64,000 bases of DNA, from NCBI GenBank assembly GCA_964016885.1, contig OZ024751.1, forward strand, positions 43,214,001-43,278,000, read 5' to 3'. This document shows positions 37,926 through 43,517 of this stretch, piece by piece. The first letter of the stretch is position 1. Each line of letters opens with the position of its first letter. The DNA comes from Eledone cirrhosa (taxonomy: Eukaryota). The translations under genes and the position numbers were made by a program. The notes under the pieces were generated by a model. The model did no database searches. It was not told the origin of the DNA and worked only from the letters and a program-made list of their open reading frames with translations.

Positions 37926-38531
37926 TGATGGCTGCCAACTCGTTTTCGAGTACGGCCACTACTTTATATCCATGTAGGAGAACCCCTACCGATGCGCTGA
38001 ACGAGTGTGACTTTTTAGTCCATCCAGCGACTTGAAAACTCTGGTACAAACACTACACTTGTGACAATTATTGACACATAGTGCTGGGGCCATGGTACCA
38101 TGTGACGACAAGTGCAGAGAGATCTCCAGATATAAAGCAATGCCTGTGCCGTGAAGCTTTTATAGTGAGCAAAGGCACTGCACAAAGCCAGTCCCACTCT
38201 CTTAACCAAGATGATATTTACCAAAAAGAAGAACAAGTCAACATCATTGGATACCATCAGGGTTGCAGGTGTTATATCAGAGTTCTCCTTCTCCTAGAAT
38301 TCTGCCTTGACAAAGGCTAAGGGGTCATCTCTCCCGGTGATTTTGGATGGCCATTGACTCTTAAGAGCTCCTTTGCCCTTTGACAGGTTTTGTTTTTAGT
38401 CCTGCAGGATGTCCAAAGTCACCCTCCTCACCAAGAAACCTTGGTGGGGTTGCCAGTTTAGTCGCCAACGACCCGACCATGAGACAGGTTGTACTGGGAT
38501 ACATGTTACCAGTAGCACCAACTGGTGACCT
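37926..38531 (-). mobile_element. ~610-bp element copy C
   Basis: Near-identical to copies B/D; (TACA)n-type flanks. Confidence 0.85.
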
Positions 38532-38618
38532 TCTTACATACATACGTACGTACATACATACATACATACATACATACATACATACATACATACATACATA
38601 CATACATACATACATACA

Positions 38619-41600
38619 ATGGCGACCGTTGTGGTCAGTGTCCGATAATTGGACGTGTGTAATTACGGCTTACATGAAGGCAACATACCATATATTGGAA
38701 AAAGTTGAGCTACATTACGCGGTAAGATTACATACAATAATTCTACATAAGTGTTTGAACTGTAAGTGTGTTGTAAAACACCTATTTATATGAACGATAC
38801 ATACACTTATGATATATGAACGATACATACACTTTAACATATAAATGCAACGTTGTTATATTACATTTATAAAGAAATATAAAAGTAACGTTTTCGATTC
38901 AGAAACAAAAATATAAGTGTTTGAACTGTGAATGTTGTGAATATGTTGTAGAACACCTATTTATATGAATGATACATAAACTTTAACATATAAATACAGC
39001 ATTGTTATATTATATTACATTCGTAAAGGAATATACTAAGTAACGGTTCTTTTTGTTCTCGATTCAAACGATTCAAGAACAACGTTTAAAACACAGTTGT
39101 AGAATTAAAAACTAACTGAAAAGAAATATTACCCAAGCTGTGAATAACTTTAAATTTGATTCTGACAGAACTTTGTCGTAACTTTTAAAGAAGATCATCG
39201 ACTATTTAAAAAAAATAAATACAAAATATTAGTGAATAGACGAACTCATCATGGCAAAAAGTACAAGTCTCCTTCGACCAAATCGCAATTACAACCGTTG
39301 TATACAGTGGAGCTACGAGCTTAACAAAGAATTATATGAAGCATACAAACAATCTGAACCCCAAAAGTTCGGTTTTATGCAAAGGCTAAAAACTTTATGG
39401 AACTCCAAACACCCAGAATTAGACTTTTCTCCAAAGCATCTAAATGAACAGGCAAAACGTATCATTAGATGTAAATTGATACATCTAACGGAATCGAGTG
39501 ATACTACAAATACAGCCCTTGTAGACAACCACCCCACCTCCACTGACAGACAAAGAGAATGGCCGGCTAAATCTAACAGTGAACAGCTCACCAACAATTT
39601 TGCTGAAATCCATCCCACTTCCACTGAAGAACAGCGAGAAAGGTCAGCTGACTCTAGTAGTAATTGTCACCACATCAACAACGAGGCTGCAATTCATGAC
39701 TCTACTGAACAAACAGAGCACCAAAAACTTGTGGGCACCCTACAAGTGATATGGAACGATATGTTTCAAGAGATACACAGCCTTAATGTGAGTGACAGAC
39801 CATACAACACTAGAGTCAGTAAAGAACCCACTAAATTGGAATTGGAAGCGGTGAACGAAATAGCTGGCAATTATCTGAAGGCTATACGATCTAAAGGTGT
39901 AGAAACGACATTTGAAACGCTCAATGTTTTGTTATATGTTTCAGCTGTCACATTGCTATCATATAACACACATCTAAAACCACGCAATCAAGATACAAAC
40001 AGAAAGCCTGAACCAGCGTGGATGCGAAATTTAAAAACCAAAATTTTGTCCCTGAGACGAAGTATCTCACACATCGCAGTCGTTATGAAATGCAACATAG
40101 AGAGAAACTTCACACGACACCAGGAAGACCTAAAGAAAAAGTTAGAGAGACGATTTGGAGATACAAAATTTAAAACTTTGAACTCCAAATTACACCAGTT
40201 GAAACAACAACTCACAGCTACAACAGAAAGACTAAAATATAAGTCAACAGCCCATAAACGACAAGTGCTAAATAGATTGTTTGCCAGAGATCCTAAATCA
40301 GTTTATCGCAGCTTCGGTGGCAAAAGCTCAATCCCTGTAAACGACACCCCTTCAAAAGAACAGGTTGAGAACTACTGGAGATCTGTATGGGAAACGGATG
40401 ACGGATTCAACAGACAAGCTAATTGGCTAAAACAACTGGAACAGGACTACTGCCAACATGTCCAGACAAAACAATATGACATAGATGGGTCAATACTGGA
40501 AACAGCTCTACAGAAAATGTCGAATAGGAAATCGCCAGGCCCAGACCTCATTACAGGATACTGGTTGAAGAATTTCACTTTCTATCGGCAAGATCTCATA
40601 CGGCTGTTTACAGAAACCATTAAGGGCACACAAGAACTGCCCAGATGGTTATCAACTGCCACTACTCTCCTCATTCCCAAAAATAGCCAAACCACCCTTG
40701 CTAAAAATTACCGCCCAATTGCCTGCCAAAACATCATGTATAAATTATATACTGGGTGCCTTAACCTGTTCTTACAGGATCACTGTGCTACCAACAACAT
40801 CATAACACCTGAGCAAGCTGGTGGAAAGAGGGAGGTGTGGGGTTGCATAGATCACCTACTAACTAACAAAATGATTCAGGAAAAAACAACAAAGAATCGC
40901 AGAAACATGACTGTCGTGTGGCTGGACTATCAAAAAGCATTTGATAGTGTACCTCATGGGTGGATTATTAAGGCTTTACAGTTAGCTAAAGTCCCACAAC
41001 CATTAGTAGCTGCTGTTGAACGCCTGACCAAGAACTGGTACACCAATTTGATCCTTAGAGGTGAGAAGGAGCAGGTTAAGACTGATAGGATACATTACCA
41101 GAAGGGCATCTTTCAGGGTGATAGCTTGTCAGTACTACTCTTCGTTCTCTCACTGAATCCACTATCTTACCTACTCAGGAAACAAGGTGGACAAAGAAGT
41201 GGGCCCAGAAGTATCTCCCATCTTTTCTTTGTTGATGACCTGAAGTTGTATGGGCCAAATATCAATGACATCAAGAAACAATTGGACCTCATTACACAAT
41301 TTTCAACCGACATCAAAATGAAATTTGGTGAGTCCAAGTGTGCATATTTGGCAGTAAAACGTGGAAGAGCTGTGCCCTCCTCTAGAAATCTAGATATGAA
41401 CGGCCTGACAATACAACCTCTGCAGTCAGGTGACAACTACAGATATCTTGGACAGGATGAGAATGTCAGATATGATGGACCCATAAATAAGGAGAGAACC
41501 AGAACTGAATACCTCAGAAGAGTAAAAAAAATATGGTCATCAGAACTGTCAGCATACAACAAATACATTGCCCACAATACCTATGCTGTGCCAATTATAA

Positions 41601-42840
41601 CGCCAACATTTGGCCTACTGAACTGGTCATTGCAAGAACTAAGTGAGATGGATGTTAGAACTCGTAAACTTCTCAGTGTTACTGGGAACTTTAACATCAA
41701 TGGTGATGTGGATAGGCTATACTTCTCACGCAAGGAAGGTGGCCGGGGTCTAAAATCAATATTAACAACATATGAGACCCGGATAGTAACACTGAAGCAA
41801 CACCTTCAACAGAGGAAAAAGGTTGGCGACCATCTTGCTCAGGTTTATGAGCATGAAAAAAGAAATATCATTAGAATAGCGACTGATCTGGAGGAGAGAT
41901 ATGGAATAAAGCCTGATATAAATCTCTCACCCAGAGAAATCGGAAGATCCTATTCAATGTTCAAACAAGAAAAAAAAATTGACCAATTTACAGAGAAAGT
42001 TGTGCATGGATACTTGAGGCGTAAAACACAGACCATAGAGGGGATAAACCACTCAAAAAGCCTGGCATGGAGTTCCGACAAGTTTATGACATCACACCTT
42101 GAGGGATATCTCTATGCAATACAGGAACAAGAACTCCCTACCAAATATCTGCTGCACAAAAGAGGAGGGCCAGCAGCTGACAATAAATGTAGGCTATGTA
42201 AAACAAAGATCGAGGATGTAAGCCACATTGTTGCCAGCTGCGAAAGAATGTCATCTCGCTACTACCTCCCCATGAGACACGATGGGATAGCTAGAACTAT
42301 CTGGAACGCACTTCGGAAAACAAAATTAACAACAAACGAGGAAGAATATATTGAGACAGATGGCACTAAGGAATACTGGTGGAACCTGAAAATAAAAACT
42401 GCCACCAAATTAAAGCACAACCGGCCTGATATTGTAGTTTGGGACCACACATTGAAAACGTGTTCTGTTGTGGAGATCAGCTGCCCACTTGATGTAAACG
42501 TTGTCAGAAAAATACAGGAGAAGGAGGACATCTACGGACCATTGATGAGGAGCTTACAAATCCAGTATCCAAGATACACCTTTAGCTTCATACCCATCAT
42601 TATTGGTGCTACGGGTTATATACCAACCCGCTTGGACCAAAGTATGACCGAACTTGGATTTGCGGACAAAAAGCGCAGCTCCCTAATTCATAGTCTACAA
42701 ATGGCTGCGATAGCTGGCACCTTCAAAATATGCAAAACATTCTTGCGATTCAAGGGATGACAATTTCTTTTCTTTTACAACCTTGCCACCAGGAAGGTGG
42801 CCGGTCAAAAAAATATACTCGAAATTAAGAGAAAGAGAAA
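38619..42840 (+). mobile_element. Apparently full-length R4/Dong-clade non-LTR retrotransposon in (TACA)n
   Basis: Unique sequence starts right after (TACA)n; ~630-bp 5' region, single ORF, 80-bp 3' UTR, then (ACAT)n. Confidence 0.85.
39251..42760 (+). CDS. Reverse transcriptase / restriction-like endonuclease polyprotein (R4/Dong-like), 1169 aa
   Basis: RT motifs [41 protein letters not shown]; zinc knuckle CRLC-X8-H-X4-[12 protein letters not shown]...VEISCP endonuclease motif; uninterrupted frame. Confidence 0.95.
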
Positions 42841-42907
42841 ACATACATACATACATACATACATACATACATACATACATACATACATACATACATACAT
42901 ACATACA

Positions 42908-43517
42908 TGGTGGCTGCCAACTCGTTTTCGAGTACGTCCACTACTTTATATCCAGGTAGGAGAACCCCTACCGATGCGCTGAACGAGTGTGACTTTTTAG
43001 TCCAGCCAGCGACTTGAAAACTCTGGTACAAACACTACACTTGTGACAATTATCGACACATAGTGCTTTGCCTTTGGTACCATGTGACGACAAGTGCAGA
43101 GAGATCTCCAGATATAAAGCAATGCCTGTGCCGTGAAGCTTTTATAGTGAGCAAAGGCACTGTACAAAGCCAGTCCCACTCTCTTAACCAAGATGATATT
43201 TACCAAAAAGAAGAACAAGTCAACATCATTGGATACCATCAGGGTTGCAGGTGTTATATCAGAGTTTTCCTTCTCCTAGAATTCTGCCTTGACAAAGGCT
43301 AAGGGGTCATCTCTCCCAGTGATTTTGGATGGCCATTGACTCTTAAGAGCTCCTTTGCCCTTTGACAGGTTTTGTTTTTAGTCCTGCAGGATGTCCAAAG
43401 TCACCCTCCTCACCAAGAAACCTTGGTGGGGTTGCCAGTTTAGTCGCCAACGACCCGACCATGGGACAGGTTGTACTGGGATACATGTTACCAGTAGCAC
43501 CAACTGGTGACCTGACA
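42908..43517 (-). mobile_element. ~610-bp element copy D
   Basis: Near-identical to copies B/C; separated from the R4 3' end by a pure (ACAT)n tract. Confidence 0.85.

What the first reader, a model, noticed from the sequence alone, without database searches (positions are those of the whole stretch)
37926..43517. Intact R4/Dong element sandwiched between two same-orientation 610-bp repeats via (TACA)n linkers
Seen: [610-bp]-(TACA)n-[R4 element]-(ACAT)n-[610-bp], an LTR-like layout around a non-LTR RLE element; copy D even reads TG...CA. However, C and D differ at about a dozen sites and C shares some states with distant copy B (atgagac, cccggt), favouring separate insertions. Inference: a microsatellite-targeting autonomous/non-autonomous pair, or two families sharing a niche in which one element's tail creates the other's target. 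Copy C is head-to-head with the R4 5' end and could affect its transcription.
Basis: partly seen in the sequence, partly recalled or inferred. Interest (0 to 1): 0.75.

Follow-up and report, generated by a model that had tools for sequence, protein, structure and literature searches.

The report
Two retrotransposons sharing one microsatellite
A young jumping gene that lands in runs of the repeat ACAT sits between two older, separately inserted copies of an unrelated short jumping element that lands in the same runs facing the other way, so the LTR-like sandwich is likely a by-product of shared landing sites and not a single unit.

Summary
The layout is real, but it is not a composite, not LTRs and not an R4-mobilised pair. 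The middle is an intact 4.2-kb RT + restriction-like-endonuclease LINE (R4/Dong-like) from a very young family, always sense to (ACAT)n. The 608-bp repeats are minus-strand copies of an internal-deletion derivative of a ~4.06-kb APE-RT-zinc-finger RTE LINE. That LINE is in this genome and matches the repeat at both ends; the repeat shares nothing with R4 and sits antisense to the same tracts. Among 39 other full-length R4 copies, 14 have a family copy within 1.5 kb upstream, 12 downstream and 5 on both sides (4.3 expected if independent). Long ACAT tracts without R4 show the same rates: 14, 12 and 4 of 45. C and D differ at 13 of 602 sites, while this R4 copy is 1 of 4225 from its family majority, so R4 likely arrived last. 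Fixed opposite strand preferences force the 'same-orientation' flanks. What may be new is the (ACAT)n target for an RLE element; I did not find it in print. The scan earlier noted a similar train on (AAT)n in this genome (e1-9592150, unchecked).

The parts
37890..37924 (+). degenerate (ACAT)n tract, 3' flank of copy C
   Evidence: sequence
37925..38532 (-). copy C of a bipartite non-autonomous RTE element (LINE 5' UTR ~427 nt joined to the last ~178 nt of the LINE, with the remnant of its last C2H2 finger and stop); 0.5% from family majority
38533..38618 (+). (ACAT)n tract left of the LINE: left part of the target tract
38619..42841 (+). full-length R4/Dong-like RLE LINE (terminal A at each end ambiguous with the tract); 1 difference in 4225 from family majority
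38747..39048 (+). imperfect internal direct repeat (~80%) in the LINE 5' UTR
39251..42760 (+). single ORF, 1169 aa: N-terminal three-helix bundle (22-73), RT (475-726), CX2CX8HX4C knuckle, RHD, PD..E endonuclease motif
42842..42906 (+). (ACAT)n tract right of the LINE: right part of the target tract, 3' flank of copy D
42907..43514 (-). copy D of the bipartite non-autonomous RTE element; 1.7% from family majority
43515..43722 (+). mixed (ACAT)n/(AC)n tract, 5' flank of copy D

Best explanation
The sandwich is likely three independent retrotransposition events into one (ACAT)n tract: two copies of a short RTE-derived element, likely pasted by an RTE LINE's enzyme, face one way, and a younger R4/Dong-like LINE, likely the last to arrive, split the tract between them facing the other way. 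Shown: the short element equals the 5' and 3' ends of an APE-RT RTE LINE of this genome; it and R4 have fixed, opposite orientations to the tract; flanking copies are independent of each other and of R4. Inferred: target-primed reverse transcription by the RTE protein (nicking the ACAT strand) for C and D, and by R4's own RLE protein (nicking the ATGT strand) for R4; the order D, C, then R4; a pre-insertion state D-(TGTA)n-C like the head-to-tail dimers seen elsewhere.
For: RTE partner: 5 of 20 fetched RTE loci carry short-element nt 1-~427 at their 5' end and nt 425-602 at their 3' end, most ~3.45 kb apart, at 92-98% identity; deletion junction shown; Exo_endo_phos + RVT_1 + zf-C2H2. No R4/short-element similarity beyond shuffles in 5 of 5 comparisons. 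Orientation: 33 of 34 family hits beside R4 antisense; 41 of 44 antisense and 17 of 17 R4 hits sense in null tracts; TATG > CATA in 28 of 28 short-element flanks. R4 junctions: 37 of 37 parsed 5' flanks end ATACAA, 34 of 37 3' flanks start CATA; 3 of 40 not parsed. Independence: up 14, down 12, both 5, neither 18 of 39, expected both 4.3, p=0.72. Null tracts without R4: 14, 12, 4 of 45, p=0.65/0.81/0.73. D ranks 20 of 37 among C's neighbours; same-locus pairs differ by 14-26 sites; LTRs of this R4's age would differ by under 2. Head-to-tail dimers without R4 within 250 bp in 6 of 29 short-element loci, two of which look like one duplicated locus. R4 has 40 of 40 scored hits 100% identical over 541 nt; C has no identical copy among 39 others scored.
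Against: The empty allele was not seen, so the order is inferred from divergence only (C: 3 differences in 602, CI 0.10-1.5%, touches the R4 upper bound of 0.13%). None of the 20 RTE loci had an intact ORF (longest 863 aa), so a currently competent partner was not shown. Close downstream neighbours are somewhat more frequent at R4 (11 of 39 within 500 bp vs 7 of 45, p=0.19), though 40 of the 58 null tracts were chosen by a pattern that disfavours abutting downstream copies. Null tracts come only from C1 1-56 Mb. Clade names rest on domain layout, not on a tree with named references.
Confidence: 0.9

Rival explanations
1. The short element is the non-autonomous partner of the R4 LINE and is mobilised by its RLE protein.
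For: Same microsatellite target and frequent adjacency. The RTE copies examined are all broken while 26 of 39 R4 copies keep an open ORF.
Against: No shared sequence at either end; both ends match an RTE LINE; opposite strand to the tract; short copies average 1.7% from their majority against a median of 4 in 4225 for R4, so they did not amplify with the R4 burst.
Confidence: 0.03
2. C-R4-D is one mobile or duplicated unit in which the short repeats act like LTRs.
For: Same-orientation flanking repeats; 5 of 39 other full-length R4 copies also have family copies on both sides within 1.5 kb.
Against: Both-sided rate equals independence and the tract null; distances vary from 21 to over 1300 bp; flanking pairs are not sisters; 13 differences where under 2 are expected; no integrase, RNase H or gag family found; 18 of 39 have no flanking copy.
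Confidence: 0.01
3. Niche construction: RTE-family insertions lengthen and purify ACAT tracts by target duplication and tail slippage, and so raise the local R4 insertion rate; the sandwich is then partly caused by the short elements.
For: 20 of 58 and 13 of 58 long tracts have a family copy up/downstream against about 1% per side at random sites. TSD-like matches average 11.6 nt vs 7.1 permuted, 0 of 1000. Several R4 3' ends join the short element's 3' end through 21-81 nt of tract.
Against: The 3' flank mirrors the 5' flank (rho 0.74) and is often (AT)n, so there is no fixed (ATGT)n tail. R4 is no more often beside a copy than an R4-free long tract is. This rival adds to the best explanation more than it replaces it.
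Confidence: 0.3

Closest known systems
R4/Dong clade RLE LINEs (Bombyx Dong, DongAg, DongBg, ostracod Dong; nematode R4)
   Same: Single ORF with RT and C-terminal CCHC/RLE, N-terminal helical bundle without zinc fingers, insertion into a microsatellite (PMC7998251 passages). Dong-R4 families are recently active in Octopus vulgaris: 5 families, 1129 insertions (PMC13282606 passages).
   Different: Target is (ACAT)n, not (TAA)n or rDNA. No HDV-like ribozyme found by a crude descriptor, though Dong and R4 have one (PMC3774820 passages).
Bipartite non-autonomous RTE LINEs (RTESINE1/2, MAR4_MD, WALLSI3, Bov-A)
   Same: 5' end plus 3' end of an RTE LINE joined by internal deletion, no ORF, no RNA-derived head (PMC5786205 passages). 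RTE-related retroposons choose sites in step with their 3' microsatellite (PMC6007223 passages).
   Different: At 608 bp it keeps the last zinc-finger codons, and it shows a strong strand-specific preference for (TATG)n/(TA)n tracts. The word 'octopus' occurs 0 times in PMC5786205.
Waldo (WaldoAg1/2, WaldoFs1)
   Same: Targets ACAY microsatellites (PMC3812793 passages).
   Different: Waldo is APE-type (R1 clade by the cited title); the element here has an RLE-type layout, so the shared target is likely convergent.
RTE-2_OV of Octopus vulgaris
   Same: RTE LINE with EN, RT and C2H2 finger, ORF 3327 nt (PMC9115989 passages).
   Different: Its 3' UTR is given as about 600 nt, against about 60 nt after the stop here; sequences not compared.

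Membership tests
R4/Dong clade | single ORF with RT, no APE domain | tested here: met
   1169-aa ORF, RVT_1 at 475-726, no Exo_endo_phos
R4/Dong clade | C-terminal CCHC knuckle and restriction-like endonuclease | tested here: met
   CX2CX8HX4C, RHD and PD..E/D motifs conserved in most homologues; the top 7 fold matches are R2 proteins, best E 4e-34
R4/Dong clade | N-terminal SANT/Myb-like domain without zinc fingers | tested here: inconclusive
   Three confident helices 22-73 and no C2H2 motif in residues 1-450; no Pfam SANT hit in any of 23 members among the families shown
R4/Dong clade | RT phylogeny groups with named R4/Dong rather than NeSL, HERO or R2 | not testable with these tools
   The 23 homologues carry no element names; the clade call rests on domain layout and on recalled motif patterns
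Dong (strict sense) | (TAA)n target | tested here: not met
   Junctions lie in (ACAT)n in 37 of 37 parsed 5' flanks
R4/Dong clade | 5' HDV-like ribozyme | tested here: inconclusive
   No Rfam ribozyme hit; none by a crude home-made descriptor that had no positive control
Bipartite non-autonomous RTE | 5' end identical to a LINE 5' end | tested here: met
   nt 1-~427 at 92-98% in 5 of 20 RTE loci
Bipartite non-autonomous RTE | 3' end identical to the same LINE's 3' end | tested here: met
   nt ~425-602 matched in 20 of 20 RTE loci, split in 2
Bipartite non-autonomous RTE | no ORF; partner encodes APE + RT | tested here: met
   Stops in all three sense frames; partner Exo_endo_phos, RVT_1, zf-C2H2
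Bipartite non-autonomous RTE | partner falls in the RTE clade by phylogeny | not tested
   Inferred from single APE-RT-C2H2 ORF and DUF6451 and recalled RTE motifs
Bipartite non-autonomous RTE | TPRT marks: 5' truncations, TSDs | tested here: met
   5'-truncated copies with intact 3' ends; TSD-like matches exceed all 1000 permutations (shared tract type inflates this)
SINE (Pol III head) | tRNA/5S/7SL-derived head | tested here: not met
   The 5' part is LINE 5' UTR from base 1; no such Rfam hit
LTR element / TRIM-like composite | terminal repeats identical at insertion and co-mobile with the interior | tested here: not met
   13 differences vs under 2 expected; independence p=0.72
LTR element / TRIM-like composite | TG...CA ends; gag/integrase | tested here: not met
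   C lacks them; no such Pfam family

The most novel reading that the evidence does not exclude
An octopod-type lineage of RLE LINEs has switched from (TAA)n to a strand-specific (ACAT)n target that is undescribed for this enzyme class. At least two families about 48% identical in protein share it, one is in a live burst (about 300 5' ends, two thirds of sampled copies with an open ORF), and it co-colonises these tracts with an RTE family on the opposite strand, building ordered trains that lengthen the tracts. It would be a ready natural system for how RLE proteins read a microsatellite.
Probability: 0.5. Interest if true: 0.45.

Novelty: new variant of a known kind. Interest (0 to 1): 0.3.

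Why it matters
It removes a false lead: LTR-like sandwiches around LINEs arise by themselves when two families have fixed opposite strand preferences for one microsatellite. About 10 such tight sandwiches (both within 200 bp) and about 40 loose ones are expected in this genome by extrapolation, and repeat annotators could mis-call them as LTR elements. The remaining value is a young, intact RLE LINE with a precise junction in (ACAT)n, a target I found in print only for APE-type Waldo elements; it makes target switching in R4/Dong proteins testable.

Tried and rejected
The repeat finder on the whole window was swamped by microsatellites. Empty allele: no second copy of the unique flank in the assembly; laying 4 runs on 37755-38300 gave no depth over the unique flank and only family-wide signal over C, so it is uninformative; no RNA holder listed. 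A genome-wide count of R4 ends joined to short-element ends was not obtained, so adjacency rests on samples. Rfam hits were only microsatellite matches below gathering score. HDV descriptor: nothing at the R4, C or D 5' ends. R4 TSDs could not be resolved inside the tracts, and ACAT content of R4's two flanks is uncorrelated (rho -0.13, n=39). In L004 the apparent short copy abutting R4 proved to be the 3' end of the RTE LINE itself; my family counts (at least 93% identity, at least 100 nt) include such LINE ends. The FastTree of 38 copies is star-like with weak support, so I used distances. Literature searches found no (ACAT)n-targeting RLE element and no such pairing; Repbase/Dfam, subscription papers and all supplements were not seen and may hold these families.
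Full report
Observation. The window is G000:C11:43214001-43278000 of a 3.0-Gb, microsatellite-rich animal genome; the only named close homologue of the LINE protein is from Argonauta hians, 53%, which suggests an octopod (inference). Copy C (37925-38532) and copy D (42907-43514) are 97.7% identical and flank a LINE at 38619-42841 through (ACAT)n tracts. Further copies lie at 19685-20291 (B, opposite orientation) and 10326-10723 (A, truncated with an inverted piece). 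C-D differ at 13 of 602 sites.

The middle element. One ORF of 1169 aa (39251-42760) has RVT_1 and zf-RVT and no APE family. A CX2CX8HX4C knuckle, RHD and PD..E motifs are conserved in most of 22 aligned homologues (22 of the 23). The AlphaFold model (mean pLDDT 85) has a three-helix N-terminal bundle and matches R2 proteins best. This is the R4/Dong layout described in PMC7998251 (passages); I could not run a tree with named references. The family is very young: 40 of 40 scored hits are 100% identical over the last 541 nt (919 candidates); exact end motifs occur 1685 times (3') and 301 times (5'). The 39 other full-length copies fetched (the best 40 of 751 candidates by 5' identity, minus the window) have median identity 99.86%, and 26 of 39 keep an ORF of at least 1165 codons. 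Junctions are precise: 37 of 37 parsed 5' flanks end in ATACAA and 34 of 37 3' flanks begin CATA; 3 of 40 were not parsed.

The short repeat. Read on the minus strand it ends in a zinc-finger remnant, a stop and about 60 nt. At L004 the same 3' end continues upstream as an ORF. Searching with that piece gave 253 candidates; I fetched 20 of the 40 scored places. All 20 match short-element nt ~425-602, and 5 also carry nt 1-~427 upstream, most about 3.45 kb away, with a clean deletion junction. The interior encodes APE endonuclease, RT and C2H2 fingers; none of the 20 has an intact ORF (longest 863 aa). So the repeat is a bipartite non-autonomous LINE of the kind described for RTE in PMC5786205 (passages). 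Its exact 5' 21-mer occurs 10,220 times. It shares no sequence with R4 above shuffled controls in 5 of 5 comparisons. It also sits in the microsatellite but on the other strand: TATG outnumbers CATA in the flanks of 28 of 28 copies (1 of 29 skipped), and 5' and 3' flank content correlate (rho 0.74), so it mostly enters existing tracts and duplicates a short piece.

Co-occurrence. Counting family hits of at least 93% identity and 100 nt around the 39 R4 copies: within 200 bp 6 upstream, 8 downstream, 1 both; within 1.5 kb 14, 12 and 5, with 18 having none; independence predicts 1.2 and 4.3 (p=1.0 and 0.72); 33 of 34 hits are antisense to R4. Random stretches hold 2 copies in 400 kb, so R4 neighbourhoods are enriched roughly 30-fold over random DNA. 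The proper null is the tract. I took 18 clusters from the first 100 listed (ACAT)10 matches and 40 from the first 100 listed matches of a tract-end pattern (neighbours within about 5 kb and one two-strand site skipped), all on C1 1-56 Mb. Of 58, 20 have a copy upstream, 13 downstream, 5 both; of the 45 with no R4 piece, 14, 12 and 4 (p=0.65, 0.81, 0.73 against R4). Within 500 bp downstream R4 has 11 of 39 vs 7 of 45 (p=0.19); the second null set disfavours abutting downstream copies. In the null tracts 41 of 44 family hits are antisense and 17 of 17 R4 hits sense to ACAT. Thus any R4 that lands between two copies is head-to-head with the upstream one and tail-to-tail with the downstream one, and the two look like direct repeats.

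Relationship and age. Among 38 near-full-length copies (C plus 37 not chosen for likeness to C), D is 20th of 37 in distance from C; same-locus pairs differ by 14-26 sites; mean distance from the majority state is 1.7%, C 0.5%, D 1.7%. The window's R4 differs at 1 of 4225 (95% upper bound 0.13%), so true LTRs would differ at under 2 sites. The order D, C, R4 is inferred; C's interval just touches R4's. Head-to-tail dimers without R4, the predicted pre-insertion state, occur within 250 bp in 6 of 29 short-element loci (L071 and L073 look like one duplicated locus) and in null tracts such as L242 and L272. The empty allele itself was not observed.

Mechanism. Shown: identity of the parts, shared ends with RTE, opposite fixed strands, independence. 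From established knowledge of TPRT (recalled): the first nick is on the strand complementary to the element's sense, so R4 would nick the ATGT strand and the RTE protein the ACAT strand; one enzyme is unlikely to do both with such strict polarity (inference). Pairing of the RNA 3' end with the target is proposed for RTE retroposons in PMC6007223 (passages) and would explain the short element's polarity.

Comparison and novelty. Dong elements are reported on (TAA)n and Waldo on ACAY (PMC7998251, PMC3812793; passages). Dong-R4 and RTE are known as recently active in Octopus (PMC13282606, PMC9115989; passages), with no target given in the passages seen. PMC3774820 (passages) reports 5' ribozymes in R4 and Dong, which would detach the transcript from upstream sequence; I found none here. 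PMC12988792 (passages) does not mention Dong or microsatellites. Eight searches found no (ACAT)n-targeting RLE element; other listed papers were seen as listings only, no supplements were read, and repeat databases are not searchable here. An earlier scan note describes a comparable train on (AAT)n in this genome (e1-9592150; not checked).

Verdict. The sandwich is an expected by-product of two known kinds of retrotransposon sharing a microsatellite on opposite strands (confidence 0.9). The only possibly new element is the (ACAT)n target of a young RLE LINE. Interest 0.3.

Noticed in passing
window 10326-10723; L146: Copy A is 5'-truncated with an inverted piece of its own 5' part at the junction, like twin-priming inversions known for L1 (recalled); L146 holds another rearranged copy with an inverted piece.
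   Followed up: no
L135, L145, L148, L154, L160, L168 (flanks of R4 copies): A second RLE family, about 47-51% identical in protein, lies in the same orientation beside R4 copies, and what appears to be its 3' end runs into (ACAT)n (L036, L050 flanks), so the target is likely shared by at least two divergent families.
   Followed up: partly
L134, L140, L145, L148, L149, L153, L157, L161, L168: R4 copies are followed within about 700 bp by further, mostly older (94-97%) same-family copies in the same orientation, forming head-to-tail trains.
   Followed up: partly
L005, L018, L025, L136, L147, L150, L154: A related older short family (68-88% identical in patches, similar 3' end) also lies antisense in ACAT tracts.
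   Followed up: no
L147:6467-7102 (-): A third RLE family, 28% identical, has its 5' junction in (CTA)n and a 3' flank rich in CAA/CAC triplets.
   Followed up: no
window 47188-47976 (-): 5'-truncated fragment of another LINE with RVT_1 and weak DUF6451.
   Followed up: no
L004:823-1467: R4 sits tail-to-tail with the 3' end of the autonomous-type RTE itself, the same geometry as with the short element.
   Followed up: yes
window 4520-4683, 12102-12536, 21618-22762, 50638-51201, 59761-59941: Several copies of other short interspersed repeats (about 170-280 bp, 80-97% alike).
   Followed up: no
window 35165-35840 and 5236-5770: Minisatellite arrays of about 52-bp and 57-bp period.
   Followed up: no
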